Positions 3,954 to 44,352 of a stretch of DNA of 64,000 bases are shown here, piece after piece. Numbering within the stretch: position 1 is the first letter of the stretch; each line of letters opens with the position of its first letter. This stretch comes from Candidatus Magasanikiibacteriota bacterium. Lineage in GTDB: Bacteria; Patescibacteriota; Patescibacteriia; Magasanikbacterales; UBA922. Under the pieces are notes generated by a model that saw only the letters and a list, made by a program, of their open reading frames with translations, was not told where the DNA came from and made no database searches. The DNA lies in the NCBI GenBank assembly GCA_041674805.1, contig JBAYVA010000002.1, positions 83,234-147,233 of the forward strand, read 5' to 3'. Made by a program: the position numbers and the translations under genes.

Positions 3954-6900
3954 TTATTTAGAAATAAATTTTTTAATCAATTTTTTTATTTTTGAAAAAA
4001 TATTTTCTCCATTACTTTTCAAAAAAAGTCCAAACAAAATAGCAGTAAAACCACCAGCTGTAGCTGTTAAATATTTTTCAACAATATCCGCGTTGTCTTG
4101 CTCTTTGGCTTTTTCTTTTTTTGTTACCAAATCTTCACTAACACCTGTTTTAATAATATCATTTTGATCACGTGGCAACAATTGATATTCTGTTTTTGTT
4201 TGATGAAGTAGTCCAGTAATACTTACTAAATTACCTTCTTCAAATATATCTTTTTTTATACCAGCTCCTCTCTTAAAATATACTTTTATTTCCTCAGTTC
4301 CATCGTCTACATACATATAAGAACTTTTTATTTCTGTAATTTCACCACTTACCAAAATAAGACTACCTTCATATTGTTCCCCCACATCTTCTAATTCCAA
4401 GACTCTACCAATTGGTAATTCACTATGTCCCAATTTTTTTATATCATTTTTTTCTTTTAATTTTATTCTAGTTTCACCAGAAGTTTCTGTAATTTCTCCC
4501 ATAACTTCTATTTTGTCTCCCCTTTTTAAATCTGGAAAATCTTTACTAAACATATAAATTTGTACACCAGCATTTTCAGAAACTATATAAAAAATTTGTG
4601 TACCCATTATACCTGGTTCTACTGCTACTGTACCTGTCACACTAATCATATCACCCAAATCTTCATCACGTATTTTTTCTAAACTAGTGTTTATAACTGC
4701 TTTCACTGAATTACTCTTACTTTTTACTATTTTAACGGATTTTACTTCTGTTATTTCTTCTACAAAATTTACCTCACCAGGGCTAATAATTTTATTCCAA
4801 ATCCAGTTACCTTCACTATTACGAACATAAGAGGCTCCTTCTATTACATCATCAAATCTTACTTCCATTATAATAGTTCCATCAGGATACAAAAGACGCA
4901 CAGAATCACTAGTGTTATTCAAAGCCAACTTTGTATCTTGGCGACCAAAGACTTTATATTCTTTAGCTTTTATCAAAGTATTAGCTCCTACAGTATAAGC
5001 TTTTGATCCACCTTCTTCATCATCAATTTTTAAACCCGAAATATCAACATCTTCTTCTGTAGGATTGTGAATTTCAATAAATTCAGTAGTATCTGAACCT
5101 ACTGGATTTGGCAAAATCTCTGAAATGTACAAAACAGATATATCACTTGTTCCAGCATAACCACCCACAAAATCTTGAGACAATTTTACACTTAAAACAA
5201 CATCCTTTTTACTTTCATTACTACCATCACTTACTGTCAAAGATACAGTATAAACTCCTTGTTGCAAAAATTTATGTTCTACACTCGCGCCATCTTCATC
5301 AGTCCCATCAGCAAAATCCCAATGAAATTTTAAATCTTTTCCTTCTGGACTAACAGTATCAGAAGCATCAAATTTCACCCATTCATTTACAGCTACTTCG
5401 GTATCTACATCAAGTGCAATAATTGGTGCTGCACTTTTACCTTCTACTATGTTTTTGCTTCCAGCAGTAATTTTACTACTCCATACCCAAGTAGCATCAT
5501 CTTGCCTCACATAACTAAAAGAATCACTAGCACTACCAGGATAACTTACACTATTTACGATTGCCCCATTTGGAGAAAATAATTTTACTTCATCTCCTCC
5601 TGTATTATTTAGAGCTATTTGTGTCATAGTTCTTTTGAAAACAATGAATTCATTTGCTTTCAATACACCTTGTTTTATTGTATATTTTTTCTTACTAGAA
5701 TCAGATAATTGCCAATCTTTCAAATCAATAGTTTCTGTACCTTTATTCCAAATTTCAATAAACTCATCATCACTATCACTACCTGGAGGATTTGGATAAA
5801 TTTCATTCAAAACTATGTTTGTTTGCAAAGAAAAAATTTCTTGTTTTTCCAAATCTTCAGCTTTTAAAGATAAAACATTTTTTTGTCCCCTAGTAATAGT
5901 ATCTGTAATTATAAAATCATAATAATCATTATCAGCATCTTGTCCATCTGTTTTTCTTATCAACGAATATGGATCACTTGCCACAGCAGCATTATCATAA
6001 GTATTACCATCATCCCAATTGCCATAAGTAACTTTATCTATTTCTTTTTTACTAGGATCTAATAATAACAAAATATCACCAGCATTATTGAGACTTCCTT
6101 TTGGTTCCTCAATTACAAAAAAACCTTTAGGCAAAATAGTCCCTGTCAAAATCGTAATTGTTTCACTACCATCTTCCAAAGACCAATCATTTAAATCAAT
6201 AATTTCTGAAGTGTTGTTATATATTTCTACGAATTCTTTTTCTCCATCACTAGGATCAGAAACCAACTCGTTTATGACCAAATCTCGTGCATTATAATTT
6301 TTTGTTGTTACTTCAGAACTAGAAGACGAACCTCCACCAGAACTAGAAACTGGAATATTTTTAATAATATTGACTTCACCTGGCGTTGGTTCTGTGGTAA
6401 TAGAAAAATCATTTTTATTATTTCCCGTGTTTTGACCATCCACGATTCTCGCCACAGAATAAGGATCACTGTGTGCAGGAGCGTTGTCTGAAATATCTTC
6501 ATCAAAAAAATCTATCCAATCACCAAAACGCACTGTGTCTATCAAATTACCAGAATTATCATACAAAAAAATACCATCACCATCATTGTTCAATTTACTA
6601 GACAAAATATTTACTCGCAAAAAACTTTTTGTTTCCAAAATATTATCCAAAACCAAAATTTTTTTTGTGCTACTACTACTTTTGTCACCTTCGTGCACTT
6701 CCCAATCTTTCAAATCAATAGTAGAGGTAGAATTATTATATATTTCTACCCATTCATTTTCACCAGCCACAGGATCACTTACAAATTCATTAATAACTAT
6801 TTCATAATTAGGAATAGTATTTGTCGTGGTAGTAGTACTTTCAAAATTTTCTACTATACTAAAGTTAAAAATGTCACTTGCAAAATCATTTTTATCATCT

Positions 6901-13363: not shown

Positions 13364-13370
13364 AAAAATA

Positions 13371-13396
13371 AAATCACCTTTTAGGTGATTTTTTTG
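13371..13396 (+). terminator. Rho-independent terminator after PBP1A
   Basis: Stem aaatcacc / ggtgattt followed by a T-run. Confidence 0.7.
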
Positions 13397-13468
13397 TAGA
13401 AAAAATTATTTAGAATTTTAAAAACCAATAAATAATTAATTAAAATGAACAATAATAAAATAGTTTTA

Positions 13469-13909
13469 TTAGAATATAAGTTTGTAAGTAAAACCTTCAT
13501 TCCATTGAGGGTTATTCCATTTCATAAAACCTACTTTTTCACACAGTTTTTGCATAGGATAGTTTTCAAAAGATGTTTCAGTAACAATCCCTATAGCTCC
13601 TCTATTTTTTGAATGTTCAATACATTTATCAATCAAACATTGTCCCATTCCAAATTTTTGAAACATTGAATCAACTAGTATCTCGCGAATAAAAAAGAAA
13701 TTATCTTCCCACCAATCTCTATCAATAGAACAAAAAGCCACAAATTTATCATTTTTTTTAGCCAATAAATATAAACTATCTTTTAGAACAAAATTTTTCT
13801 TGAGTAATTTAATTGTGCTTTTATCAAATATATAATTAAAAGATTTTTTACCCTCTAAAAGTTCAATTTCTTTTTCATTCTTTATTTCAGAAATAATAAT
13901 ATCATCCAT
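13469..13909 (-). CDS. GNAT-family N-acetyltransferase
   Basis: 146 aa. The acetyl-CoA loop-like QKFGMGQCLIDKCIEHSK and overall size fit GNAT. Confidence 0.65.
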   Translation of the reverse strand: MDDIIISEIKNEKEIELLEGKKSFNYIFDKSTIKLLKKNFVLKDSLYLLAKKNDKFVAFCSIDRDWWEDNFFFIREILVDSMFQKFGMGQCLIDKCIEHSKNRGAIGIVTETSFENYPMQKLCEKVGFMKWNNPQWNEGFTYKLIF

Positions 13910-14122
13910 AAAATAAAAATAATTTTATTTAATTTTCAAATATAATATTGAATTTTAGATGATGTAATCTTTTTTATTACTTTGGAAAATAATTTTTTCT
14001 AGTTTTTAGCAAATTGAATTTAATTACAAGATAATTAATCATTTCAAATCTAAAAAAAATATCAACTAAATTATTATAAACAAAACAAAAAACAAATTAA
14101 TAATTTTATTTTATAAATAAAA

Positions 14123-15250
14123 TTATTTTTTAATAGGCATAACGATATACAAGTAATTGTCTTTTTCTTTTGGTCTAAAAATACAAGGAGCATCAGCACT
14201 ATTTACACCAAATTCAATGTTTTCACCTTCCATGTGTGCTAAACCATCCAACACATAGCTGTGGTTTAATAAAATGGAATTTTCTTCACCAATTACTTCA
14301 GCATCAACTTCAGAAGTATGTTCTCCAGCTTGAGTACTGGAAGAAGAAACTCCTACATTTTTTTTGCTTGGACTAAGCTCAAAAGAAACAGCATTGATAC
14401 CACCTGACGTAAACAAACTCGCTGCTTTGATTTTGTTGACCATAACACTTAGCGGAAAAGCAGCTGTTGTTTTAAAATTGTTTGGAATAATTTGTGTATA
14501 ATCTGGATAACGGCCTTCAATCAAACGACTAGTCATTTCAAAATTTCCATAACGAATAGCTATTTGATTATCACTTACCCAAACACGAACAATATCTTCA
14601 CCGCCATGACTTTTGGCAATTGTCAAAAGACGATTTATTTCATAAGCTACGCGTGCTGGTACAATACAGTGCACATTTTGAATTTCACCTTGTTTAATTT
14701 TTATTTTAGCTTCTGCCAAACGATAAGAATCTGTTGCTGCTAATACTAATCCATCATATTTTTCTGAAAAAAATGAAAAATAAATACCTGAAAATTCTGG
14801 TCTTACTTCGTTTTTGGAAACAGCTATAATAACTTTGCCAATAGCTTCTTTCAAATCATCAACTTGAACAACATAAGAATTTTTTTCTTCCACTTCTGGT
14901 AAAATTGGATAATCTTCATCTGTTGATCCTTTGATTTTAGTGCTAGAATTACCTGAAGTTATGATTAATTCATTGCCTTTTTGGTCTATTTCTACTTGTT
15001 CGCTTGTCAATAACTTAACATAATCTGCCAAAGTTTTTGCTGGAACTGTAAAATTTCCAGTAGTTTCTACTTTGGCTCTAATTTGTGTTTTTACTGCAAT
15101 TTCTAAGTTAGTACTGCTAATTTCAATACCTGAATCATTGGCTTTGATAAGTACGTTACTCAAAATTGGTAAGTTTGTATGTTTACTAGCTAAGGAACTC
15201 ACAAGACTCAAGGAATATTCTAAGTTTTCTTTTGTACATGTGAATTTCAT
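14123..15250 (-). CDS. dnaN: DNA polymerase III beta sliding clamp
   Basis: 375 aa. N-terminal MKFTCTKENL..L..V....S.....PILSNVLI, a three-domain length, and position immediately downstream of dnaA. Confidence 0.9.
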   Translation of the reverse strand: MKFTCTKENLEYSLSLVSSLASKHTNLPILSNVLIKANDSGIEISSTNLEIAVKTQIRAKVETTGNFTVPAKTLADYVKLLTSEQVEIDQKGNELIITSGNSSTKIKGSTDEDYPILPEVEEKNSYVVQVDDLKEAIGKVIIAVSKNEVRPEFSGIYFSFFSEKYDGLVLAATDSYRLAEAKIKIKQGEIQNVHCIVPARVAYEINRLLTIAKSHGGEDIVRVWVSDNQIAIRYGNFEMTSRLIEGRYPDYTQIIPNNFKTTAAFPLSVMVNKIKAASLFTSGGINAVSFELSPSKKNVGVSSSSTQAGEHTSEVDAEVIGEENSILLNHSYVLDGLAHMEGENIEFGVNSADAPCIFRPKEKDNYLYIVMPIKK

Positions 15251-15764
15251 ATGTTTGTTGTTTTATTAGTATATATATATTTATATAACTAGTAATATAT
15301 AATAAGGCCTGTGTGTAAAGTGCGAAAGTCGTTTTTTTGTTTTGGTTGACTTATTTTTTTGTGTGGACTTCTGCGCTTAAACTGTGTTTTTAAATGTGGT
15401 ATTTCTGGTGATAACTTTTTTTTAATTTTTTTCCTGTTGATGAACTGTTGATTTGTGGATAGATTATGAACAGTCTTTTTTTAGTTATCAACTTTTTTGT
15501 TATCGAGAATTTTTTTTGTGAATTGTTTGTTATTAACTTTTTTTAAATATTATTTTTAAAGGAATAATTTTTATTAGTTTTTGTTTGTCTTGTCAGAACT
15601 CTTAGTTTGGAGTTGATAGAATGAATCTAATAAAAATATAATTTTTTGTTTGCTAATAAAACTTCTCTGTTTTTTTGTTGAGAAATTTTTCAAAAATTAT
15701 AATGATTTACAATTTTTGAAAAATCCCTCATCTTTTTTTTAAAAAGATTTTTGGGATTATTTTT
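15251..15764. other. dnaA-dnaN intergenic region with DnaA-box-like sites (candidate second oriC module)
   Basis: 514-bp ORF-free AT-rich spacer containing tgtggatag (15454-15462, 1 mismatch), tgtggactt (15362-15370), several TTATC(A/G)A variants, and the 12-mer attatgaacagt shared with the region upstream of dnaA. Confidence 0.5.
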
Positions 15765-17150
15765 TTAAACAGCGTTGGAATATAATCTTTGTTTTATCAT
15801 TTCCAAATCTTGTTTGAGCTTTAAGTCGTTGTCTATACTTTGTAATATTTTACTGTGTGCATGCATAGCTGTAGTATGATCTCTACCACCTAGTTCATCA
15901 CCTATATTTGGATAAGAAAGTTTCAACTCTTCTCTTAGCAAATACATGATAATTTGACGTGGAAAAGCTAATTTTTTTTCACGACTTTTGCCGAGTACAT
16001 CATCGATAGAGATATCAAAATAACCAGCTACGACATTTATTATTTCACGAGGAGTTAAAGAACGTTTCATACTTTGTTCTTCAAAACTAGATAATACTTG
16101 TTTAATAGTTTCTTCAGTTGCTTCAATATTTTTTAGTTCGTGATAAGCAATAATTTTGTTGAGAGCGCCTTCTAATTCACGAATATTATTTTTAACATTT
16201 GTCGCAATAAATTGGATAAGTTTTCCTTCAATTTTGAAATCTTTTTCCTGAGCTTTTCTTTGTAGAATAGCTAAACGAGTTTCTAAGTCAGGAGGAGAAA
16301 TATCAGCAATCATACCCCATTCAAATCTACTGCGTAAGCGATCTTCTAAAGCAGGTATGGCTTTTGGTGGTCTATCACTTGTTAAAACAACTTGTTTACC
16401 TTGTTGGTGTAATTCGTTGAAAGTGTGAAAAAATTCTTCTTGTGTTTGTTCTTTGCCACCAATAAATTGAATATCATCAATCAAAAGTAAATCAACATTT
16501 CTATATCTATCTTTGAATTCTTTGGCTCTACCTTCTTTTACAGAAGAAACAAATTCATTGGTAAATTTTTCAGAACTAACGTATAAAATTTTTGTTTGAG
16601 GATTGGCCTCAAGCATAGTATGGCCAATCGCTTGTATAAGATGAGTTTTTCCCAAACCTACTCCTCCATAAATGAATAAAGGGTTGTAAGAATCTCCAGG
16701 ACGACGAGCTACGGCTTGAGCTGCAGCATGAGCAAGTTCATTACCTTTACCTACGACAAAAGTATCAAAAGTATATTTTGGATTCAAACCAAATTGCTGA
16801 ACCAAAGTATTTTTTCTTTGGTTATTGTATAAAGGGTTTGTAATAGTAGAAATTTGTGGTAACTTCTCTGACATTTTACATTCAGATTCTTTGATATTTT
16901 TTATATTTTCTACTATATAATCTACTTTTTTGATAGGTTTGCCTGTCACTCTTTCTAAGATCTTGATTATTTGAGAGTGATGCTTCTTTTCTAACCAACT
17001 CTTTGTAAAGGAGTTAGGAACACAAATATTCACTAATCCTTCTTCATAATTTGCTATTCCTGTGTTTTTGAACCATGTCGTAAATTGAGCTTTGGATAAA
17101 CTTAGCTCAAATTCGGCCAAAACAGCTTGCCAGATTTCGTGAGTGGTCAT
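15765..17150 (-). CDS. dnaA: Chromosomal replication initiator DnaA
   Basis: 461 aa. Walker A GGVGLGKTHL, LLIDDIQF, sensor and box VII regions, C-terminal DNA-binding helix-turn-helix (..HTTAMHA..). Confidence 0.95.
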   Translation of the reverse strand: MTTHEIWQAVLAEFELSLSKAQFTTWFKNTGIANYEEGLVNICVPNSFTKSWLEKKHHSQIIKILERVTGKPIKKVDYIVENIKNIKESECKMSEKLPQISTITNPLYNNQRKNTLVQQFGLNPKYTFDTFVVGKGNELAHAAAQAVARRPGDSYNPLFIYGGVGLGKTHLIQAIGHTMLEANPQTKILYVSSEKFTNEFVSSVKEGRAKEFKDRYRNVDLLLIDDIQFIGGKEQTQEEFFHTFNELHQQGKQVVLTSDRPPKAIPALEDRLRSRFEWGMIADISPPDLETRLAILQRKAQEKDFKIEGKLIQFIATNVKNNIRELEGALNKIIAYHELKNIEATEETIKQVLSSFEEQSMKRSLTPREIINVVAGYFDISIDDVLGKSREKKLAFPRQIIMYLLREELKLSYPNIGDELGGRDHTTAMHAHSKILQSIDNDLKLKQDLEMIKQRLYSNAV

Positions 17151-17239
17151 AGATAAAGTCTTTATTTTTATGTTTTTTCATTTTATCACAGTTTGCTAAT
17201 TTAAAAAATCCTCTAAATTAAGCTAAAAGTGCATAAAGT

Positions 17240-17268
17240 TGTGGACAACTTGTGGATTCTGTGGATAA
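17240..17268. promoter_or_regulatory. Cluster of three adjacent DnaA boxes upstream of dnaA (oriC / dnaA autoregulation)
   Basis: tgtggacaa (17240-17248), tgtggattc (17251-17259) and a perfect tgtggataa (17260-17268). A further ggtggataa lies at 17492-17500. Confidence 0.75.
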
Positions 17269-17670
17269 TTTGGCTAAAATACTTTATATTTTTTATTAAA
17301 AAATTATGAACAGTTTGGAGATTTTTACTTTTTTTATTTTAGAAAAATAGATTTTTTGTTAATAGCGTTTTTTTGCTAATTTTAGTAAAAAATGAATAAA
17401 AATAGTTGATTGCTTTATTATAATAACACATCCTTCACTCGTAGCAAAAACAAAGGTCAGAAATGTTTTTTTACCAATGTTTTTGTCTAAAGGTGGATAA
17501 TTACTACGAAATAATACAATTTATACCCTATTTTTGATTTTATTAGGATTTGTAGATTCATTAATTTTGATTAATGTGGTCAATTTATTAGATTTTTGTG
17601 TTTTTTGAAGTTGAAAATTTTTTTTATGTAAGTTAGTTTTTCTTATTATTGTCTAAGTTTTTATCAATAC

Positions 17671-17699
17671 TTGACAAAACTTTAAATTTTTTGTATTAT
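17671..17699 (+). promoter_or_regulatory. Promoter of rpmH
   Basis: TTGACA (17671-17676), 17-nt spacer, TATTAT (17694-17699), 35 nt upstream of the rpmH ATG. Confidence 0.65.
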
Positions 17700-17733
17700 T
17701 TAGCTACATTATTTAGTTTTGAACTTATAAGTT

Positions 17734-17913
17734 ATGGCAACAAAAAGAACATATCAGCCAAAAAAACGTAAAAGAGCAAAGACCCATGGTTTTCTAGAAA
17801 GAATGAAAACAAAAGATGGTCGTAAAGTTCTTAAGGCACGTCGTGATAAAGGCAGAAAAAAACTTACAGTAAGTGAAGAAAGAACAGGTAAAAGAACAAG
17901 AAAAACACGTTAA
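17734..17913 (+). CDS. rpmH: 50S ribosomal protein L34 with a basic C-terminal extension
   Basis: Not in the ORF track (59 aa). Translation is [59 protein letters not shown]. The first 44 aa are canonical L34, and the gene sits in the classic rpmH-rnpA position. Confidence 0.9.
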
Positions 17914-17978
17914 TTTGTCTGTTTTTAATCTAATAACCATTACTACCTCGTTTTTACGAGGTTTTTGTGTTATAATAT

Positions 17979-18362
17979 TTGTATATGTTAGCCAAAGAAT
18001 TTAGATTAAGAGGTAAAAAAGAATGGGAAGTTTTGTTTGCAGAAGGTAACTTTGCTTCGGCAAATTTTTTGACGGTCAAATTTTGGAAGATAGAAGTAAA
18101 TAAATTTCCTCGTAGAAAGTTTCAAGTATCAGATCTTAAGATAGGCTTTAGTGTTGGTTTAAAAATAAGTAAAAGTGCTGTAAAACGTAATAGTGTTAAA
18201 AGAAAAATGAGTGAAGTTGTGAGATTGTTATTAAAAGACAATAAAATTAAATCAGGTTATTTGATTGGATTCTTGGCTAAAAATAATATTTTAGATGTTG
18301 ATTACTCACAAATAGAAGCAGATATTATTAATTGTCTGAAAAAATCTAAACTATTAATCTAA
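17979..18362 (+). CDS. rnpA: RNase P protein component
   Basis: 127 aa. RNR-like motif SAVKRNSVKRKMSEVVR, and position directly after rpmH. Confidence 0.8.
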   Translation: MYMLAKEFRLRGKKEWEVLFAEGNFASANFLTVKFWKIEVNKFPRRKFQVSDLKIGFSVGLKISKSAVKRNSVKRKMSEVVRLLLKDNKIKSGYLIGFLAKNNILDVDYSQIEADIINCLKKSKLLI

Positions 18363-18883
18363 AAATTTAGCTTAAAATAGATAAAAAATGAACTTACAAA
18401 GTTCATTTTTTTTGTATTTGTTTGTTTCTTTTGAAAATATTCAAATTTTTTATAAATTTACGAAAAGTTTTGTTTTTTATTTTATTTTTTTATGAGAGAT
18501 AATTAATTTGTATTTGTTAATGTTACTTTTTGTCTTTAATTAGCCAAATATATTTATAGTTTTTTTGTTTTATTTTTTAGTAATTATAATTTTGTTATTT
18601 TTTGCTAAAAATTTGTCATAATTTGTTTTTTAAGAAAAAAATTTTGTAAAAAATTATATTATTTTTTATAGGAACTTAAAAATTTTGTTGTTAATTCAAA
18701 AAAATGGCTAAAATTAGCACAGTTTAAAAAGTAAAAATAATTTTATTTTTACATATTGTTTTAATTTGTTTTTTTTGTTACAGTTAGTTTAAAGTTAGAC
18801 ATATATATTTTGAAAAATATTTTACTAATTTTTAATAAAATATTGTCAAAATTTTACTTTTTATAATTCATAATTTTGGCTTT

Positions 18884-19141
18884 ATGAAGCACAAAATAAC
18901 ATATTTACCACGTATTCCAATTTTGTTTTTGATAAGTCTTTATCAAAAGACATTATCCCCTGATCATGGCTGGTTCAAGAAGTATCATCCTAATGGTTAT
19001 TGTCGTTTTTATCCTACTTGTAGTCAGTATGGTTATGAGGTGATAAAGAAAAAAGGTTTGATCAGAGGTATTCCTCAAACTGCTTGGCGTATTATGCGTT
19101 GCAACCCTTGGTCTAAGGGGGGTGTTGACTTGCCGAAGTAG
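18884..19141 (+). CDS. yidD: Membrane protein insertion efficiency factor YidD
   Basis: 85 aa. YQKTLSP....CRFYPTCSQYGYEVIKKKG...G...RI.RCNPW..GG.D matches the YidD signature. Confidence 0.85.
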   Translation: MKHKITYLPRIPILFLISLYQKTLSPDHGWFKKYHPNGYCRFYPTCSQYGYEVIKKKGLIRGIPQTAWRIMRCNPWSKGGVDLPK

Positions 19142-19183
19142 TTTTGTGTTATAATATAGTTATAATTTTTAATTTAAAATAAT

Positions 19184-19543
19184 ATGAATATGGAATCTGG
19201 AGCTAGAAGGAATAGTGATTTTAAATTTTCTAGAGAAGGTAGAAAAGATGATGAGGATCCTTTGGCTGAAATTTTACCTAAAGAAGATAAAACCACAGAT
19301 GTCTTTTTAGCAGGTATGAGCCCTGAGGAATCATCTTTTTTTAGAAATTCACAAATTAAGCAAGCTCATGAGGATGTCTATAAAGCCGCAGCTGTATCAG
19401 AAACAAACCCTAGTGATTCTTTTAACGAACAAGAAACAGAATGGTTTGCACAAGGTGAAAGGCAAGATTTTCAAGAAAAAGATATACCAAGAAAAGAGAA
19501 TCTTGTAAAAAGATTGTTTAAGAGAATGTTTGGTAGTAAATAA
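19184..19543 (+). CDS. Hypothetical charged protein
   Basis: 119-aa ORF preceded by an extended -10 promoter (tgtgttataat, 19145-19155). No recognisable motif. Confidence 0.4.
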   Translation: MNMESGARRNSDFKFSREGRKDDEDPLAEILPKEDKTTDVFLAGMSPEESSFFRNSQIKQAHEDVYKAAAVSETNPSDSFNEQETEWFAQGERQDFQEKDIPRKENLVKRLFKRMFGSK

Positions 19544-19915: not shown

Positions 19916-21283
19916 TTAATGATTATGACCTGTATGATCTTCGTGATCTTCTTCTGCCATGGCATGTCCGTGAGAATGTTCTTCATGCTTATGTCTTTCA
20001 CCTTCTACTAATTTATCTGCCAAAAAGTTTACAACTTTTTTATTTAATAGCATGTTGTGAATAGAATCAAGTACTTCTGGTTTTTTCAAATTTTCTAGAT
20101 ACTCAGCAGTTTCTTTGTAGTATTCACGTAGATTTTTTACTTCAGCATCTAATTCATCTTTGGAAATAGTTAGACTGTGTGCTAGAGCTACTTCACGAGA
20201 AAGCAATGAAGCTTTGGCTCTATCAGTTGCTTTGTTTCTAAAATCTTCTTGTAATTCTTTTTCATTTTTTTTGATGTCTTGTAAATATTGTTCAATTGTT
20301 ACACCATGTTTTTCTAAATCATGTTGTAATTCATAAAACATTTTTTTGAGTTCAGCTTCTACTAACACTTCTGGAATTTCTTCAAATTTAGTTTCTTTGA
20401 TCAATGTTTCAAACATTTCTATTTCAGCTATTTCATCAGCTTTGTGTTCAGCTTCGTGAGTCAAATTTTCTTTGATTAGGTCTTTTAATTTGTCTAAACT
20501 TTCTTGTCCTAATACTTTGGCAAAAGCATCGTCTGCTTTTGGTATTTCTCTACCAAAAACTTCTTTTACTTTTACTTTGAATTTGCCAGTTTTACCAGCT
20601 AATTGTGCACTATAATAATTTTTTGGAAAAGGTAAATCAAATTCTTTTTCATCACCTTTTTCTAAACCAATCAAAGCATCATTGAAACCAGGGATATGTT
20701 GATGATCTTCTGATAAATAAACATTGTAATCAATAGCCTGTCCACCTTCTACTGGTACTCCATCCAAAAACAAATTCATATCTATAACGATCTTGTCTTC
20801 TTTTGTTGCTTTGCCTTTTTTGATTACTTCTTTTGCTTGCATTTTTAATAAATTATCAATAGTTTCATTTACTGATTGATCATTTACTTCTTTGACTGTT
20901 CTTTTTATTTTGATTGATTCTAATTTTGGTAATTCAACTTTTGGTAACAAAGCTACTTTGGCAGAATAAACTAAATCATTAGCAGGTGCCATTTTTTGAA
21001 TATTGATATCTGGCATGCCAATAGTATTTAATTTTTCAGCTGTTACAGTTTGATAAAAACTGTCTTGGATAATATCTTCCAAAGCTTCTTGCAAAAGTTT
21101 CATTTCACCTACTTCTTGTTTGACCATTTCAAAAGGAGCTTTGCCTTTGCGGAAACCTCTAATAGCTACACGATTTGAAATAGTAGTAGCTGCTTTTTCT
21201 AAATGTTTTTGATAATCTTTTGGACTAACTGTAATAGTAAGTTCAATTTGTGATTTTTCTAATTTTTCTATTTTGTGTTCCAT
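19916..21283 (-). CDS. tig: Trigger factor with a histidine-rich C-terminal tail
   Basis: 455 aa. Ribosome-binding signature GFRKGKAP and a central FKBP-like region. The final about 28 aa are GERHKHEEHSHGHAMAEEDHEDHTGHNH. Confidence 0.9.
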   Translation of the reverse strand: MEHKIEKLEKSQIELTITVSPKDYQKHLEKAATTISNRVAIRGFRKGKAPFEMVKQEVGEMKLLQEALEDIIQDSFYQTVTAEKLNTIGMPDINIQKMAPANDLVYSAKVALLPKVELPKLESIKIKRTVKEVNDQSVNETIDNLLKMQAKEVIKKGKATKEDKIVIDMNLFLDGVPVEGGQAIDYNVYLSEDHQHIPGFNDALIGLEKGDEKEFDLPFPKNYYSAQLAGKTGKFKVKVKEVFGREIPKADDAFAKVLGQESLDKLKDLIKENLTHEAEHKADEIAEIEMFETLIKETKFEEIPEVLVEAELKKMFYELQHDLEKHGVTIEQYLQDIKKNEKELQEDFRNKATDRAKASLLSREVALAHSLTISKDELDAEVKNLREYYKETAEYLENLKKPEVLDSIHNMLLNKKVVNFLADKLVEGERHKHEEHSHGHAMAEEDHEDHTGHNH

Positions 21284-21298
21284 ACTTTATTTTTTAAA

Positions 21299-21337
21299 AC
21301 GCGGAATTACGCGGACTTTTACGCGGATAGACGCGGA
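21299..21337. repeat. Four direct copies of ACGCGGA (spacing 10, 12, 10 nt) in the tig leader
   Basis: Copies at 21299-21305, 21309-21315, 21321-21327 and 21331-21337. They read TCCGCGT on the tig coding strand, and the nearest copy is 16 nt from the start codon. Confidence 0.85.
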
Positions 21338-21382
21338 AAGTGACCAAAATAATGCGTTTATTTTTGATTAAAAAGTGGCTAT

Positions 21383-21411
21383 AATATAGCTTGTTTTGCT
21401 TGAAATGTCAA
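21383..21411 (-). promoter_or_regulatory. Promoter of tig
   Basis: On the minus strand: TTGACA (21411-21406), 17-nt spacer, TATATT (21388-21383). Confidence 0.65.
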
Positions 21412-21417
21412 CTGTTG

Positions 21418-21460
21418 GCAAGCAGAGTAAGCAAAGTAAGCAGAATAGGCATAATAAGTT
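21418..21460. repeat. 43-bp element (copy A) upstream of the tig promoter; an inverted copy lies at 24970-25012
   Basis: The reverse complement aacttattatgcctattctgcttactttgcttactctgcttgc matches copy B at 39 of 43 positions. It contains three tandem YTGCTTRC-type units. Confidence 0.85.
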
Positions 21461-21461
21461 T

Positions 21462-21490
21462 TTGACGAGGATATTTTTTGGTGTTATTGT
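21462..21490 (+). promoter_or_regulatory. Candidate promoter of the GC-rich mini-gene
   Basis: TTGACG (21462-21467), 17-nt spacer, TATTGT (21485-21490). Confidence 0.45.
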
Positions 21491-21508
21491 TTGTTGCGGA
21501 GGTGAGAA

Positions 21509-21646
21509 ATGAAAGAATTTCTTGAGACCCTCATCGGCATTCTCGCTTCCCTTTTTTGGGGAGCGGTGTTCGCCGTTTTCCTCTTTGATGAGGAAGCGGC
21601 GGCGACCTTCCTGCGAGGGGAGGTCAAATATGTCACGGGGGTTTGA
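21509..21646 (+). CDS. 45-aa single-TM peptide, GC3-rich (candidate foreign mini-gene)
   Basis: Not in the ORF track. GGAGGTG Shine-Dalgarno 5 nt upstream of the ATG. Translation is MKEFLETLIGILASLFWGAVFAVFLFDEEAAATFLRGEVKYVTGV. Codons end mostly in G/C, unlike surrounding genes. Confidence 0.4.
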   Translation: MKEFLETLIGILASLFWGAVFAVFLFDEEAAATFLRGEVKYVTGV

Positions 21647-21696
21647 AAAGGAGGGCGGTCCGGGCGTACGTGCGCGGACCAAACTCATAAATTAAG

Positions 21697-21729
21697 ACCG
21701 TTTTTCTTTATTGAAAGACGGTTTTTTTT
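21697..21729 (+). terminator. Rho-independent terminator after the 45-aa mini-gene
   Basis: Stem accgtttttc / gaaagacggt (one mismatch), loop tttatt, then a T8 run. Confidence 0.6.
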
Positions 21730-21784
21730 GACAGTTCATTTTTTTGTAGTAGTTTTTAAATATCTTCCACGGAAGGAGGTGGTT

Positions 21785-21976
21785 GTGGGTGGTGAGAGCC
21801 CCTTTCATACGCTGATCCAGTGTCCAAACTGTAGGCGTTATACGGACTCAAGAGAGTTCGAAACGCTGACAAAAGATGGGGGAGAGTACAAAAAGTGCCC
21901 ATATTGTGGGTGGTCACATCTTGTGTCTATGCCCTCGGCGTACTTTAAGTATAGGAGGGACGATGGAATTAATTAG
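21785..21976 (+). CDS. 63-aa zinc-ribbon protein (CPNC..x21..CPYC), GC3-rich
   Basis: GTG start 6 nt after AGGAGG (21773-21778). Translation is VGGESPFHTLIQCPNCRRYTDSREFETLTKDGGEYKKCPYCGWSHLVSMPSAYFKYRRDDGIN. The track ORF 21728-21976 has an implausible AT-rich N-terminal extension from TTG. Confidence 0.5.
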   Translation: MGGESPFHTLIQCPNCRRYTDSREFETLTKDGGEYKKCPYCGWSHLVSMPSAYFKYRRDDGIN

Positions 21977-21996
21977 GTAAGGGGTGGGGAAGGTGG

Positions 21997-22034
21997 ATGC
22001 GCGCGACTTCTACGAAAGTGGTTGTCGTGCGCGT
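21997..22034 (+). other. GC-rich 11-bp stem-loop downstream of the zinc-ribbon gene
   Basis: atgcgcgcgac (21997-22007) pairs with gtcgtgcgcgt (22024-22034, including two G:U pairs) around a 16-nt loop. No T-run follows directly. Confidence 0.55.
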
Positions 22035-22065
22035 TCGTTCAAATAAAAAATAAAATTTTAAAATT

Positions 22066-22097
22066 AAAAAAACACTCTCAAATTGAGAGTGTTTTTT
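22066..22097. terminator. Bidirectional terminator shared by the GC-rich island and hppA
   Basis: Stem acactctca / tgagagtgt, loop aat, flanked by A- and T-runs. Confidence 0.75.
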
Positions 22098-22119
22098 ATT
22101 TCAGTTTAAATCAATGCTT

Positions 22120-24108
22120 TTATTTTAACAAACCAATTATGAGCAAAGCCACAATGTTAGCCACTTTGATCATAGGATTGATTGCAGGGCCAGCTGTGTC
22201 CTTGTAAGGGTCACCTACAGTGTCACCAGTGACAGCAGCTTGATGTGCAAAACTTCCTTTACCACCGTGATTGCCTTCTTCAATATATTTTTTTGCATTG
22301 TCCCAAGCACCACCACCAGTAGTCATAGAAATTGCGACGAATAGACCGGTGATAATAGTACCAACAAGCAAACCACCAAGAGCAGCAGCACCCAAGAAAT
22401 AACCAACTAAGATTGGAGCTACAACAGGGATAACTGCTGGTAAAATCATTTGACCAATAGCACCTTTAGTTACTATATCTACTGTTTTGGCATAGTCAGG
22501 TTTGGCTTGACCTTCCATAATACCTTTGATTTCACGGAATTGTCTGCGAACTTCTTCTACTACACTACCAGCTACTTTACCTACTGATTGCATTAGTAAT
22601 GAACCAAATAAGTAAGGAAGCAAACCACCAATAAATAAACCTGTCAAAACTTTTGGATCATCAATTCTAAATACTGTACTGATACCTTCTGCATCAAGTT
22701 TGTGTGTGAAATCTGCAAATAATACTAGAGCAGCTAGAGCAGCTGAAGCGATAGCATAACCTTTGGTAACAGCTTTTGTGGTGTTGCCAACAGCATCTAG
22801 CGGATCTGTAACATTTCTAACATCTTCTCCAAGTTCTGCCATTTCGGCGATACCACCAGCATTGTCAGTGATAGGTCCATAAGCGTCGATTGCTACGACA
22901 ATACCAGTAAGAGAAAGCATAGACATAGCAGCGATAGCTACTCCGTAAAGTCCCATGAAGTGATAAGCTACAAGCATACCGGCGACAATAGCCAATACTG
23001 GCAAAGCAGTTGATTTCATGGATACTGCTAGACCTGTGATGACATTGGTACCATGACCTGTTTCACTAGATTTTGCAATTTGTTTTACAGGAGCATATTT
23101 GGTTGAAGTATAATATTCAGTAATCCAAACCATAGCACCAGTAAGTACGATACCAACTACAGTTGTCCAGAAAACATCAGCAGTAGTCGCATTTAAATCA
23201 GCAGCGTAGTGTCTACTCAAGAAAAAGAAACCAATTATTGAGAAAAGGCCAGACATTATTAGACCTTTGTACAAAGCTCCCATGATGTTGTTCTTTTTGC
23301 CAAGTCTGATGAAGAAACTTCCAAAGATTGAAGCAATAATAGAAATAGCTCCAAGCATAAGAGGAAACATAATACCTGCAGTAGTACCAACAAAAGTAAG
23401 TCCACCAAGTACCATCGCAGCGACAGCTGTTACTGCATAAGTTTCAAACAAGTCAGCAGCCATACCAGCACAGTCACCGACGTTGTCACCGACGTTGTCA
23501 GCAATTACAGCTGGATTACGAGGATCATCTTCTGGAATACCTTTTTCTACTTTTCCAACTAAATCAGCTCCGACGTCAGCAGCTTTGGTAAAAATACCAC
23601 CACCGATACGAGCGAATATTGAGATAAGACTACCACCGAAAGCTAATCCAATAAGAGCATCTAGGTCTTTGGTCAATAAATAAAAACCAGCAACTCCCAA
23701 AAGTCCAAGACCAACTACGAGTAAACCAGTAACAGTACCACCTTTGACAGCTACATCTAAAGCAGCTTTTAAACCTTTTTTGGCAGCTTCAGTAGTACGA
23801 ACATTGGCTTTGACAGATACATTCATACCTACAAAACCAGCAATTCCAGAGAAAAGAGCTCCAACTAGGAAACCTAGTCCAGTCATCCAGCCTAAAGTTA
23901 GTCCAAGAACCAAGAAAACAAGGATAGCTACATAAGAAATAGTCTTATATTGGCGAGCCAAATAAGCTTTGGCACCTTCTTGGATAGCGCGAGCAATATT
24001 TTGCATGCGTTCTGATCCTGTAGGCTGTTTGTTTATCCATTGAATTAAAAAGATACCGTAACCAATCGCCAAAACGGCTGGTCCGATAAGCAGTAGTGTT
24101 GTTAGCAT
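22120..24108 (-). CDS. hppA: Membrane-bound ion-translocating inorganic pyrophosphatase
   Basis: 662 aa, polytopic. Contains GGG(I/L)[35 protein letters not shown] and GDTVGDP motifs. Codon third positions are A/T-biased like host genes. Confidence 0.95.
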
Positions 24109-24253: not shown

Positions 24254-24898
24254 CTATTTTTTAATTTGGATAAGTTTGGCTAGTTGTTTTTGGCTTATTT
24301 TCAATAGATCTTCTAGTTTCGTTTCTTTATTTTTCTGTAAATAATTTTTTACCAGGAAATAGCCTATTACTCTACCTATATATGCAGGTTTGCTTTTGGG
24401 ATTATGAAACCATTTGGCAGGGTTGTAATCTTTTAGCTTAAAAAATCTTTTATTTTTGTTTATCAGGTCTTCAACTTCATTTTTGTTTAATTCAAAATTT
24501 TCGGTTAGGGCGAATTTGGTAATTGTTTTTTCAAAGTTTAGGGCCACGCCGTGCAGTAATATTTCTTCTAATAGTGTCTTAGGAAAGCCAAATTTCTGGT
24601 AAATACTGAGTAAATAAAGATCATTAGAAACAGGGCGTCTGACGTATTGTTTGAGATATTTTTTGAATTTTTTGTGTTTGGTGTCAAAAGTAACAGCTAG
24701 TACATTGTCGTTTATTATTCTGGTTTCCACAGCGCTACCAACACGAGTTCCGTCCTCCATAACTAAAATATCAACATTCTTAGTGTCAAGATATTTGGAA
24801 ATTTGTTTCAATACCAAATCAAACTCTTTTTTTAGTCGGGTGTTATAGGGTTTTAGCAGAGGGTTAGCTTGGAGAATGTGGAGGTGGATGTTTTTCAT
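24254..24898 (-). CDS. Hypothetical protein (214 aa)
   Basis: Long ORF with host-like composition and its own terminator hairpin (about 24239-24262). No motif recognised. Confidence 0.5.
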   Translation of the reverse strand: MKNIHLHILQANPLLKPYNTRLKKEFDLVLKQISKYLDTKNVDILVMEDGTRVGSAVETRIINDNVLAVTFDTKHKKFKKYLKQYVRRPVSNDLYLLSIYQKFGFPKTLLEEILLHGVALNFEKTITKFALTENFELNKNEVEDLINKNKRFFKLKDYNPAKWFHNPKSKPAYIGRVIGYFLVKNYLQKNKETKLEDLLKISQKQLAKLIQIKK

Positions 24899-24969: not shown

Positions 24970-25012
24970 AACTTATTCTGCCTATTTTGCTTACTTTGCT
25001 TATTTTGCTTGC
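24970..25012. repeat. 43-bp element (copy B) upstream of polA
   Basis: aacttattctgcctattttgcttactttgcttattttgcttgc, followed by tatgtTACAAT. Inverted relative to copy A (39/43 identity). Confidence 0.85.
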
Positions 25013-42443: not shown

Positions 42444-43007
42444 ATGTCAAATAAAATAATTTTAGGTTTTGTTGGTGATTTGGCTTCTGGTAAGGGAACC
42501 TTGGCTAAATATTTACAAGAAAAGTATAATTGTAATACTTACAGATTTTCTAATATGCTTCGTGATGTTTTAGATAGAATCTATGTAGAAAAAAATCGTG
42601 AAAATATGCAACTCGTTTCAAAAGTATTGCGCGAAAATTTTGGGCAAGATGTGATGAGCAATGTCATTGCCAAAGATGTGGTTGGTGACAAAAATGAACT
42701 TGTTGTGGTAGATGGTATTAGACGTCCAACTGACATCACTTATTTACAAAATTTAGAAGGTTTTCATCTAATATATATTACAGCTGACGTCAAAACTCGT
42801 TGGCAAAGAATGGTGAATCGTCAAGAAAATCCTGATGAAAAAGACAAAACGTTTGAACAATTTTTACTTGATGAACAAGCAGAAGCAGATATGCTGATAA
42901 AAGAGCTTGGTAGTAAAGCTGAAAAAACAATAAATAATGATGGTACAATCGAAGAACTTTATAACAAAATAGAAAATATTTTAGAAAGTTATGGACATAA
43001 AAATTAA
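42444..43007 (+). CDS. P-loop nucleoside-monophosphate kinase family protein (adenylate / UMP-CMP kinase-like), substrate unknown
   Basis: 187 aa. P-loop GDLASGKGT and VVDGIRRP (resembles the DGFPR of NMP kinases). Overlaps dut by 17 nt. Confidence 0.55.
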   Translation: MSNKIILGFVGDLASGKGTLAKYLQEKYNCNTYRFSNMLRDVLDRIYVEKNRENMQLVSKVLRENFGQDVMSNVIAKDVVGDKNELVVVDGIRRPTDITYLQNLEGFHLIYITADVKTRWQRMVNRQENPDEKDKTFEQFLLDEQAEADMLIKELGSKAEKTINNDGTIEELYNKIENILESYGHKN

Positions 43008-43425
43008 ACGCATAGACAAAAGTTTACCTTTACCAGAATACAAAACACAAGGCTCTATTGCTTTTGATATGTATTCTCGCGAAGAAATGAAAATTGCGCC
43101 AAAATCTTTGGCACTTTTACCAAGTAATTTCATTATCAAAACTCCAGAAAGTCACGGACTTATTTTGTCAGCTAGATCTAGTCTTGCTAAGAAAAAAGGT
43201 TTGATGCTCGCCAATGGTGTTGGTACAATTGATAGGGATTATTGTGGTGAAAATGATGAAATATTATTGTCAGTTTATAATTTTACAGATGCAGAAGTAA
43301 TTGTAGAAAAAGGTGAGCGTATCGCCCAAGGTATGTTTATGCGTATTGATAGTGGTAATTTTGTAGAAGTAGAAAAAATGGAAGAAAATGATAGGGGGGG
43401 GTTTGGGAGTACAGGTTCGTTTTAA
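42991..43425 (+). CDS. dut: dUTP diphosphatase
   Basis: 144 aa. AFDMYS, GVGTIDRDYCGE and C-terminal RGGFGSTG motifs. Confidence 0.85.
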   Translation: MDIKIKRIDKSLPLPEYKTQGSIAFDMYSREEMKIAPKSLALLPSNFIIKTPESHGLILSARSSLAKKKGLMLANGVGTIDRDYCGENDEILLSVYNFTDAEVIVEKGERIAQGMFMRIDSGNFVEVEKMEENDRGGFGSTGSF

Positions 43426-43443
43426 TGCAGATTAGTATTGATA

Positions 43444-43464
43444 TTTACGCGGATAGACGCGGAA
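43444..43464. repeat. 21-nt copy of the ACGCGGA-repeat element (two units) in the dut-thyA spacer
   Basis: tttacgcggatagacgcggaa is identical to 21318-21338. It ends 16 nt before the thyA ATG, in the opposite orientation relative to the downstream gene compared with the tig copy. Confidence 0.85.
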
Positions 43465-43479
43465 TTAATTTTATAAAAT

Positions 43480-44352
43480 ATGAAAGCATACTTGGATATT
43501 GTTAAAAAAATATTAGATAGTGGAATAGAAAAAACAGATAGAACAGGTACTGGTACTATTTCTATACCTGGCATCATGTTTGAACATGAAATGAGCAAAG
43601 GTTTTCCATTACTTACCACAAAAAAAATGCCTTTCAAAATTTTGGCTGTGGAGTTGGAATTTTTTATCAAAGGTCTTACTGACAAACAATGGTTGATTGA
43701 TAGAAACTGTCATATTTGGGATGAATGGGCAAATCCTGAAAAAGCTCCTTATGGACATGACGAAGCTAGCAAAAAAAGAATGGCAGAAGAAAGAGATTTG
43801 GGGCCAGTTTATGGTTTCCAATGGCGTCATTTTGGTGCACCTTATTATAATTATGATAGTGATTATACAGAACAAGGTTTTGATCAGCTGAAATATGTAG
43901 TTGATAATTTGAAAAATAAACCAGACGATAGAAGAATGGTTGTAAGCGCCTGGAATCCTGCAATGGCTTCTAAAATGGCTCTCCCTCCATGTCACTATGC
44001 TTTTCAAGTTACGGTTACTGATGGTAAATTAAATCTTATGTGGAACCAAAGATCTGTGGACACTATGCTAGGGCTTCCTTTTAATATCGCTAGTTATGCT
44101 TTGTTATTACATCTTTTGGCAAAAGAATCCAATTTGGGTGAGGGTAAGCTCGTTGGTTTCCTTGGTGACACTCATATTTACAAAAATCATATAGAAGGTG
44201 CAGAAGAACAACTTAGTCGTGATTCAAATAAATATCAATTACCAAAATTGGAAACAGAAAATTTCACTTCTATTTTTGACTGGAAAGCTGAAGATACCAA
44301 AGTCGTTGGTTACGAAAGTTTTGATAGAATAAAATTTGATATTGCTGTTTAA
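43480..44352 (+). CDS. thyA: Thymidylate synthase (ThyA type)
   Basis: 290 aa. DRTGTGT, FQWRHFG, catalytic LPPCHYAFQ, and DTHIY. Confidence 0.95.
   Translation: MKAYLDIVKKILDSGIEKTDRTGTGTISIPGIMFEHEMSKGFPLLTTKKMPFKILAVELEFFIKGLTDKQWLIDRNCHIWDEWANPEKAPYGHDEASKKRMAEERDLGPVYGFQWRHFGAPYYNYDSDYTEQGFDQLKYVVDNLKNKPDDRRMVVSAWNPAMASKMALPPCHYAFQVTVTDGKLNLMWNQRSVDTMLGLPFNIASYALLLHLLAKESNLGEGKLVGFLGDTHIYKNHIEGAEEQLSRDSNKYQLPKLETENFTSIFDWKAEDTKVVGYESFDRIKFDIAV

What the first reader, a model, noticed from the sequence alone, without database searches (positions are those of the whole stretch)
21299..21338. Array of four phased ACGCGGA repeats inside the tig 5' leader
A GC-rich heptamer is repeated four times with 10-12-nt (helical) spacing. 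The array lies between the predicted tig promoter (-10 at 21383-88) and the start codon, with the nearest copy 16 nt from the ATG. The only other non-arrayed occurrence I saw in the window is a single copy inside a CDS at about 32546. Phased direct repeats are typical of response-regulator or iteron-type protein binding. On the mRNA the array would read UCCGCGU x4, right next to a start codon that lacks a Shine-Dalgarno.
Basis: seen in the sequence. Interest (0 to 1): 0.5.

Follow-up and report, generated by a model that had tools for sequence, protein, structure and literature searches.

The report
Mobile repeat arm in tig leader
The four phased ACGCGGA repeats in front of the trigger-factor gene are real, but they are an inserted 39-base module from a widespread family of small selfish repeat elements, not an ancestral control site for that gene.

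Summary
ACGCGGA occurs 8 times in the window against 0.57 expected. Four copies at 21299-21337 (spacing 10/12/10) lie between a near-consensus tig promoter and the tig ATG.

Both are insertions. The tig block is present in relatives with 77-80% identical Tig. It is absent from relatives at 60-65% that keep the promoter and a short leader. The dut block is absent from a relative with 90% identical Dut.

The same word, phased at 10 bp, forms arrays in at least 120 genomes of many phyla, mostly intergenic. About 28% of the loci also carry an inverted array, giving a long hairpin. In several genomes, convergent arrays bracket a small PD-(D/E)XK_3 ("GxxExxY") gene. Arrays also lie in frame inside lepA, recG, gatC and rsmI.

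My best reading is that each window array is a solo arm of this hairpin-cassette family, which resembles rRNA intervening sequences and MITEs. The heptamers are better conserved than the spacers, so some factor probably still recognises them. A tig-specific response-regulator or iteron site is not supported.

The parts
21299..21337 (+). 39-nt module ACGCGGA-ATT-ACGCGGA-CTTTT-ACGCGGA-TAG-ACGCGGA. It lies in the predicted tig 5' leader, where the mRNA reads UCCGCGU x4. It is a solo arm with no inverted partner within 1.5 kb.
   Evidence: shown to be an insertion by alignment A1
43425..43463 (+). Second copy of the module in the same 10/12/10 register, with a decayed first half: ATGCAGA-TTA-GTATTGA-TATTT-ACGCGGA-TAG-ACGCGGA. 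It starts on the last base of the dut stop codon and ends 16 nt before the thyA ATG.
   Evidence: (L015 has ACGCTGA-CTT-GCGCTGA-CTTTT-ACGCGGA-TAG-ACGCGGA at the same place); absent in L143, L141, L144 and L145
19916..21283 (-). tig (trigger factor), the gene whose leader carries the insertion
   Evidence: Pfam Trigger_N, FKBP_C, Trigger_C; identical protein deposited as Candidatus Magasanikbacteria trigger factor
21383..21411 (-). Predicted sigma-70-type tig promoter, TTGACA-17-TATATT. It is conserved in all relatives, with or without the array.
21338..21376 (-). The rest of the predicted leader upstream of the array. It includes about 24 nt (TAAACGCATTATTTTGGTCACTT) that the relatives lack, of unknown origin.
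   Evidence: alignment A1; inference for the start site
42991..43425 (+). dut (dUTPase), whose 3' end abuts the second module
43480..44352 (+). thyA, downstream of the second module. In L015 the gene after the module is a different one.

Best explanation
Each window array is one arm (a 39-nt block of four words, [7-3-7]-5-[7-3-7]) of a family of small hairpin-flanked, probably mobile cassettes. The arms of these cassettes are arrays of a GC-rich heptamer (ACGCGGA, usually followed by T) phased about one DNA helical turn apart.

Shown:
- The block is an insertion into an originally short tig leader in the ancestor of one Magasanikbacteria subclade.
- The block was inserted a second time directly after dut, in a narrower lineage.
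- In other Patescibacteria and other phyla, the same words in convergent orientation bracket a PD-(D/E)XK_3 (GxxExxY) gene.
- The same words also form cargo-less hairpins, some of them in frame inside conserved genes.
- The window copies lack the opposite arm and any cargo gene.
- The heptamer positions stay conserved after insertion.

Inferred:
- The words are binding sites on double-stranded DNA for a multimeric protein of the element family. Candidates are the GxxExxY nuclease or the Avd-like four-helix-bundle IVS protein that is found with it.
- That protein, or gene conversion among copies, keeps the words intact.
- Any effect on tig is a by-product or a later co-option. Examples would be a roadblock between the start site and the ATG, or an altered 5' UTR.
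For: Enrichment: 8 copies against 0.57 expected.

Same module at two unrelated loci with a shared 19-mer and the same 10/12/10 register.

Insertion at tig: the block is present in the window, L122, L123 and L127 (Tig 77-80% identical). It is absent in L147, L148 and L149 (60-65%), which keep TTGAC(A/T)-17-TATA(T/A)T and a 25-35-nt leader.

Insertion at dut: the block is present only in the window and L015. It is absent in L143 (Dut 90%), L141/L142 (77%), L144 (67%) and L145/L146 (65%). L144 and L145/L146 carry other palindromes in that spacer.

In 65 of the 120 loci there are 3 or more phased copies, and spacing is 10 bp in 172 of 204 gaps. In 34 of 120 an inverted array lies downstream, against 1 upstream. 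92 of 120 are intergenic by a crude ORF call. Flanking genes are convergent in 27 loci and divergent in 5.

Cargo: convergent arrays bracket PD-(D/E)XK_3 ORFs in L095 (arms also 10/12/10) and in L053, where the whole element is in frame inside lepA. L004 has five direct copies, the ORF and then a hairpin.

Independent samples not chosen through the array: L166 (Patescibacteria) has ACGCGGA arrays, then the ORF, then TCYGCGT arrays. Four of six plasmid-borne GxxExxY genes have word-repeat flanks, including a (CGCGGAT-NN)x3 hairpin in Gemmatirosa.

Cargo-less in-frame copies occur in lepA, gatC, recG and rsmI.

Constraint on the words: 76% identity against 52% for spacers, 57% for the rest of the leader and 25% upstream of -35.
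Against: No inverted arm and no GxxExxY or IVP gene was found in about 104 kb of the source contig, so an active element in this genome is not shown. No target-site duplication or transposition mechanism was identified. The heptamer conservation over the divergence seen here (Tig 77-80%) is more than a dead relic would show and fits a host function just as well. All four window copies are perfect while the relatives' copies are degenerate, and this is unexplained. Binding of any protein to the words is inferred only.
Confidence: 0.6

Rival explanations
1. Host operator. The array is a binding site for a host DNA-binding regulator, a tandem-repeat binder of the OmpR/PhoB, TorR or CtsR type acting as a dimer of dimers. 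Sitting between the start site and the ATG, it represses or tunes tig, and possibly the dTMP operon too.
For: Direct repeats are phased at 10/12/10 bp, about one helical turn. Heptamers are more conserved than spacers. The heptad-N3-heptad architecture equals that of CtsR operators (own knowledge), and tig encodes a chaperone. The array was kept in four diverged relatives.
Against: The array is absent from relatives with the same promoter. The second site is absent even at 90% Dut identity, and in L015 it is followed by a different gene. There are only two arrays in about 104 kb, and they sit in opposite orientation relative to the adjacent genes. The same words lie inside ORFs and as arms of cassettes in many phyla. 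The position is downstream of the predicted start site rather than at or upstream of -35. No regulator gene is adjacent.
Confidence: 0.2
2. RNA-level element. UCCGCGU x4 acts in the tig mRNA leader, for example as a protein-binding or processing platform next to a start codon without a Shine-Dalgarno. Alternatively it pairs with the complementary ACGCGGA dimer in the dut-thyA transcript (19 nt perfectly complementary) to give an RNase III substrate, as IVS stems do.
For: The tig transcript would carry the reverse complement of the 19-mer present in the dut-thyA transcript (inference). Full elements form very stable hairpins of -30 to -100 kcal/mol. 23S rRNA IVS stems built from terminal inverted repeats with heptamer repeats are cut by RNase III (PMC4990558). 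There is a slight excess of G.U over U.G pairs in the hairpins (69 against 38).
Against: The leader alone has no significant structure (z = -0.54). Orientation relative to transcription differs between sites. The strand asymmetry is weak (24 against 12 hairpins). A 10-bp phase fits B-DNA better than A-form RNA. Relatives that have the tig array were not shown to have the dut partner.
Confidence: 0.12
3. Chance or local slippage. A GC-rich word was amplified by replication slippage and has no wider meaning.
For: Short tandem arrays can arise by slippage. All four heptamers are identical.
Against: The spacers differ (ATT, CTTTT, TAG). The same module sits 22 kb away and in other genomes with the same register. 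None of 100 shuffles reached the observed count. The array is conserved in relatives.
Confidence: 0.02

Closest known systems
23S rRNA intervening sequences (IVS) with an S23p / 23S_rRNA_IVP ORF (Coxiella, Leptospira, Salmonella; PMC4990558; also reported in CPR rRNA genes, PMC11270868)
   Same: A small selfish insertion bounded by terminal inverted repeats that form a long stem. Tandem heptamer words (GACAGAT x3-4 in Coxiella) lie in the arm next to a small ORF. ORF-less short versions exist. 23S_rRNA_IVP genes lie next to the GxxExxY cassettes seen here (L158, L095).
   Different: The window copies are not in rRNA. They are single arms without a stem or an ORF. The word is ACGCGGA, phased at 10 bp rather than contiguous 7-mers. 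The cargo seen with this word is PD-(D/E)XK_3, not S23p. RNase III processing was not tested.
Rickettsia palindromic elements and other prokaryotic MITEs (PMC10969869)
   Same: Short, non-autonomous palindromic repeats scattered in intergenic regions and inserted in frame into unrelated housekeeping genes. Presence or absence varies between close relatives.
   Different: RPEs are restricted to one genus and are about 150 bp with their own conserved peptide. Here the arms are modular arrays of one heptamer shared across phyla. No transposase is known, and no target-site duplication was seen.
REP/BIME and REPIN elements with RAYT transposases (own knowledge)
   Same: Intergenic palindromes concentrated between convergent genes (27 convergent against 5 divergent here). 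Many copies per genome. A dedicated nuclease family is proposed to recognise them.
   Different: REP sequences are species-specific, begin with a GTAG-type tetranucleotide and are not built from phased words. The associated protein is a Y1 (HUH) transposase, not PD-(D/E)XK_3.
Tandem direct-repeat operators: CtsR heptad-N3-heptad, TorR decamer boxes, OmpR/PhoB boxes (own knowledge)
   Same: The geometry matches: 7-nt words with 3-nt spacers, a 10-bp period and four boxes. This is what the array would work like if a protein binds it.
   Different: The sequence differs. There is no conserved position relative to a promoter across orthologues. The array behaves as an insertion polymorphism. No cognate regulator was identified.

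Membership tests
Hairpin-flanked GxxExxY (PD-(D/E)XK_3) / IVS-like cassette arms | Arm made of the word ACGCGGA(T), or a transition variant, repeated in phase at 9-10 bp | tested here: met
   Window 21299-21337 and 43447-43463. The same word and phase occur in L095, L166, L053, L004, L155 and at least 120 scan loci.
Hairpin-flanked GxxExxY (PD-(D/E)XK_3) / IVS-like cassette arms | Patescibacterial arm layout [7-3-7]-5-[7-3-7] (10/12/10) | tested here: met
   Both window sites, L015, the L095 arm next to the PD-(D/E)XK_3 ORF, and L120 (10/12/9)
Hairpin-flanked GxxExxY (PD-(D/E)XK_3) / IVS-like cassette arms | Opposite arm in inverted orientation (stem-forming) | tested here: not met
   No inverted-type array within 1.5 kb of either site. 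The window copies are therefore filed as solo arms, not as complete elements.
Hairpin-flanked GxxExxY (PD-(D/E)XK_3) / IVS-like cassette arms | Cargo ORF (PD-(D/E)XK_3 or 23S_rRNA_IVP) between the arms, or elsewhere in the genome | tested here: not met
   phmmer with both cargo types found nothing in the window, L137 or L139, about 104 kb in total. The rest of the genome could not be searched.
Hairpin-flanked GxxExxY (PD-(D/E)XK_3) / IVS-like cassette arms | Insertion polymorphism between related genomes | tested here: met
   tig leader; dut spacer
Response-regulator type direct-repeat operator (OmpR/PhoB/TorR-like) | Direct repeats about one helical turn apart | tested here: met
   10/12/10 spacing
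Response-regulator type direct-repeat operator (OmpR/PhoB/TorR-like) | Fixed position at or upstream of the -35 region of the regulated promoter | tested here: not met
   The array lies downstream of the predicted -10 box, at about +40 to +78. At dut-thyA it abuts the dut stop codon.
Response-regulator type direct-repeat operator (OmpR/PhoB/TorR-like) | Site conserved upstream of orthologous target genes | tested here: not met
   Absent in L147-L149 (tig) and in L141-L146 (dut-thyA), although the promoter and operon are conserved
Response-regulator type direct-repeat operator (OmpR/PhoB/TorR-like) | Cognate regulator that binds the site | not testable with these tools
   No regulator gene lies next to either site. 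Binding needs an experiment.
Iterons / origin repeats | 17-22-bp repeats next to an initiator gene and an AT-rich unwinding element | tested here: not met
   The words are 7 nt. dnaA lies about 4-5 kb away, with yidD, rnpA and rpmH in between. The array is inside a transcribed leader.
CtsR operator | Tandem heptad A/GGTCAAA-NAN-A/GGTCAAA | tested here: not met
   The geometry matches but the word is ACGCGGA. The CtsR consensus is from own knowledge.
Any Rfam RNA family | Covariance-model match at the gathering threshold | tested here: not met
   The window at the gathering threshold gave only tRNAs. 21200-22200 at E<=5 gave only chance-level hits. Eighteen hairpin loci gave nothing at the arrays.

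The most novel reading that the evidence does not exclude
The 10-bp-phased ACGCGGAT arrays are the recognition arms of a previously undescribed, cross-phylum class of tiny mobile cassettes. Their cargo is a GxxExxY PD-(D/E)XK nuclease, and they occur alongside Avd-like IVS proteins. The cassette protein binds one word per helical turn. The elements spread into intergenic spacers, mRNA leaders and, in frame, into essential genes. 23S rRNA intervening sequences would then be just their best-known landing site. Solo arms such as the one in the tig leader stay bound and have been co-opted to modulate the host gene.
Probability: 0.25. Interest if true: 0.7.

Novelty: new variant of a known kind. 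Interest (0 to 1): 0.45.

Why it matters
For this locus it removes a tempting but wrong annotation. The array is not an ancestral tig regulatory site, so it should not seed a regulon search.

More broadly, the same heptamer array ties three things together: dispersed hairpins in many phyla, in-frame insertions in housekeeping genes of CPR bacteria, and the uncharacterised GxxExxY and IVS-protein gene families. If the link holds, it gives a concrete, testable handle (protein, DNA word and phase) on how intervening-sequence-like elements move and what these very common proteins of unknown function do. It would also flag a class of insertions that inflate or split gene calls in metagenome-assembled genomes.

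Tried and rejected
- Rfam gave nothing on the window, on the 1-kb intergenic region at E<=5, or on 18 hairpin loci.
- The literature search for the exact dimer strings returned 0 papers. Searches for GxxExxY, PDDEXK_3 and IVS-protein terms found no description of the arrays.
- A recurrent neighbouring protein, such as a transposase or regulator, next to the 120 arrays: all-against-all BLAST found only generic families.
- Phage origin: only 5 hits in IMG/VR.
- More arrays in the same genome: none in the 20 kb added to the window ends.
- Leader RNA structure: not significant.
- RNA-stem strand asymmetry in the hairpins: weak and not used.
- An inverted partner, or the 40% GC block at 21420-22060 as cargo: rejected. 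The tig promoter lies between the block and the array, and L123 has the array without the block.
- Considered from memory and rejected on sequence: NrdR boxes, DnaA boxes, CIRCE/HAIR, MraZ repeats and CsrA GGA sites.
- The AAGCARA 9-nt array next to the tig -35 box is a separate promoter-upstream element, not a degenerate copy of the module.

Full report
**1. The observation**

The + strand reads AAAACGCGGAATTACGCGGACTTTTACGCGGATAGACGCGGAAAG. Exact ACGCGGA copies start at 21299, 21309, 21321 and 21331. The window (about 30% GC) contains 8 exact copies against 0.57 expected, and none of 100 shuffles reached 8.

tig is the ORF 19916-21283 on the - strand (Trigger_N, FKBP_C, Trigger_C). An 11-of-12 sigma-70 match, TTGACA-17-TATATT, lies at 21411->21383 on the - strand. 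The array therefore sits in a predicted leader of about 93 nt and ends 15 nt before the ATG. No Shine-Dalgarno is visible there.

Single copies lie inside ORFs at 4087 (- strand) and 32548. A second phased pair lies at 43447/43457.

**2. The unit is a 39-nt module present twice**

The tig array is ACGCGGA-ATT-ACGCGGA-CTTTT-ACGCGGA-TAG-ACGCGGA, that is [7-3-7]-5-[7-3-7].

The second site lies in the spacer of a dCMP deaminase / kinase / dut / thyA / folA / tmk operon. It shares the 19-mer TACGCGGATAGACGCGGAA. Read in the same register, it is ATGCAGA-TTA-GTATTGA-TATTT-ACGCGGA-TAG-ACGCGGA (43425-43463), starting on the last base of the dut stop codon.

A closely related genome (L015, Candidatus Magasanikbacteria) has ACGCTGA-CTT-GCGCTGA-CTTTT-ACGCGGA-TAG-ACGCGGA at the same place, followed by a different gene.

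The word reads ACGCGGA on the + strand at both window sites, so it is antisense to tig but sense to dut-thyA. About 104 kb of the source contig (window plus L137 and L139) holds only these two arrays. Neither has an inverted partner within 1.5 kb.

**3. Both sites are insertions**

The identical Tig protein is deposited as a Candidatus Magasanikbacteria MAG.

*tig leader.*
- Relatives with 77-80% identical Tig (L122, L123, L127) keep the promoter.
- They also keep four phased copies at the same place, but the copies are degenerate (TCTGCGT, TCTGCAG, TCCGCAC, TCAGCGT).
- Relatives at 60-65% (L147, L148, L149) keep the promoter but have a leader of only 25-35 nt, with no array.
- The alignment shows a clean indel (A1).

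*dut spacer.*
- A relative with 90% identical Dut (L143) has a 25-nt dut-thyA spacer without the module.
- Relatives at 77%, 67% and 65% also lack it.
- L144 (67%) and L145/L146 (65%) carry unrelated palindromes in that spacer.

So the module entered the tig leader in the ancestor of one subclade, and entered the dut spacer later.

**4. The words remain constrained**

Among the four array-bearing leaders, identity differs by region:

| Region | Pairwise identity |
|---|---|
| Heptamer columns | 76% |
| Spacers | 52% |
| Rest of the leader | 57% |
| Upstream of -35 | 25% |

On the tig strand, T1, C2, G4 and C5 are each kept in 15 of 16 copies, and position 3 is C or T. The core is therefore GCRGAT on the + strand.

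This speaks for continued recognition or homogenisation rather than free decay. The leader RNA itself is not structured (z = -0.54).

**5. The same word builds arrays in many phyla**

I scanned one genome per species for the dimer in AT-rich flanks. The scan reached its 120-locus limit, against my rough estimate of about 20 by chance. Hits fell in Patescibacteria, Cyanobacteria, Chloroflexota, Acidobacteriota, Verrucomicrobiota, Planctomycetota, Bacteroidota, Poribacteria and others.

- 65 of 120 loci have at least three phased copies.
- 172 of 204 gaps are exactly 10 bp.
- 34 of 120 have an inverted array just downstream, against 1 upstream. This gives hairpins of -30 to -100 kcal/mol.
- 92 of 120 are intergenic by a crude ORF call. 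Flanking genes are convergent in 27 loci and divergent in 5.
- No neighbouring protein family recurs.
- Rfam has no family for the hairpins.
- Viral contigs hold only 5 hits.

**6. Link to a cassette**

- In L095 (Wolfebacteria), a 10/12/10 array and an inverted array bracket a PD-(D/E)XK_3 (PF13366, "GxxExxY") ORF.
- In L053 (Saccharibacteria), the same arrangement sits in frame inside the GTPase domain of lepA. A second, cargo-less hairpin sits further down the same gene.
- In L004 (Thermoflexales), five direct copies precede such an ORF and a hairpin follows it.
- Cargo-less arrays lie in frame in gatC, recG and rsmI.

Samples chosen through the protein, not the array, agree:
- L166 (Patescibacteria) has ACGCGGA arrays, then the ORF, then TCYGCGT arrays.
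- Four of six plasmid-borne GxxExxY genes have word-repeat flanks, including (CGCGGAT-NN)x3 in Gemmatirosa and CRCRGAGGA x3 in Bacteroides.
- L156 uses the word GACACGAAAC, and a neighbouring 23S_rRNA_IVP gene (L158) is followed by AAGTTTCKNN repeats.

The arm architecture is general, and the word varies by lineage.

**7. Comparison with what is known**

- 23S rRNA intervening sequences are selfish insertions. Their terminal inverted repeats form an RNase III-cut stem. In Coxiella the stem contains tandem heptamers next to an S23p ORF (PMC4990558).
- CPR rRNA genes hold 23S_rRNA_IVP ORFs and short unexplained insertions (PMC11270868).
- PF05635 resembles the nucleic-acid-associated DGR protein Avd (PMC10053308).
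- PD-(D/E)XK_3 has no known function and shows multiple transfers (PMC3424549).
- In-frame palindromic insertions are known from Rickettsia (PMC10969869).

I found no paper describing the ACGCGGAT arrays.

**8. Verdict**

The array is real and non-random. It is best explained as a solo arm of this cassette family, inserted into the tig leader (confidence 0.6). Protein binding to the phased words is the likeliest mechanism, but it is inferred.

The rivals are a host operator for tig (0.2) and an RNA-level role, including pairing with the complementary dut-thyA site (0.12). Neither is excluded. The weakest points are the lack of any cassette in the sequence held from this genome, and the capped cross-phylum scan with no control pattern.

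Noticed in passing
window 21420-21458 (+) and 24975-25010 (-): A second, different phased repeat: AAGCARA-NN with a 9-nt period, in 3-4 copies, followed by AATAGGCAKAATAAGTT. At both places it sits directly upstream of a -35 box: TTGACG for the small ORF at 21509, and TTGACT for the 214-aa DUF2268-like gene at 24254-24898. The pattern has 0.00 matches expected by chance. It looks like a shared promoter-upstream (activator or UP-type) element, and it also abuts the tig -35 box on the other side.
   Followed up: partly
window 21420-22060: A 40% GC block in a 30% GC genome, between the hppA terminator (22067-22097) and the tig promoter. It holds a 45-aa hydrophobic ORF (21509-21646, +) with a strong GGAGGTG Shine-Dalgarno, its own promoter-like site (21462-21490) and a terminator-like hairpin near 21690-21735. 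It also holds an 82-aa ORF with CxxC...CxxC (21728-21976). There are no Pfam hits. The block is absent from L123, but a similar Shine-Dalgarno and start is seen in L127.
   Followed up: partly
L095 931-1866 and 2693-3794; L156/L158 around 1-1900: In CPR genomes, the IVP and GxxExxY cassettes sit at the 5' ends of pilin or secreted-protein genes. In L095 an IVP-like domain is fused in frame just before a pilin G|FTVIEL cleavage motif. In L156 the T-rich arm is translated as the hydrophobic core of an apparent signal peptide.
   Followed up: no
L053 180-2510: A Saccharibacteria lepA carries two in-frame insertions of the element: one with a complete PD-(D/E)XK_3 domain inside the GTPase domain, and one cargo-less hairpin further downstream.
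   Followed up: partly
L137 19256-20519 (source contig, beyond window position 1): Two adjacent stand-alone proteins of 191 and 204 aa hit only the RNA polymerase alpha C-terminal domain (PF03118). They lie next to a TrmB-family regulator.
   Followed up: no
window about 13000-19200: The dnaA, dnaN, rpmH, rnpA and yidD cluster lies here (from the L001 gene table). Cumulative GC skew reaches its minimum at about 14-15 kb. The replication origin region is therefore only a few kb from tig.
   Followed up: no
L144 10436-10519; L145 10436-10543: The dut-thyA spacer carries different, unrelated palindromic insertions in different Magasanikbacteria-like lineages: a G/C-rich hairpin in L144 and a long A/T-rich palindrome in L145. 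This spacer appears to be a hot spot for small insertions.
   Followed up: no
L064 6990-7130; L007 1000-1130: Some genomes have tandem super-arrays of three-word modules: five modules of CCGCGGATT-ACGCGGATTA-ACGCGGATT in a Lentimicrobiaceae MAG, and CACGGAT/CGCGGAT modules ending in AGAGC in Xanthomonadales.
   Followed up: no
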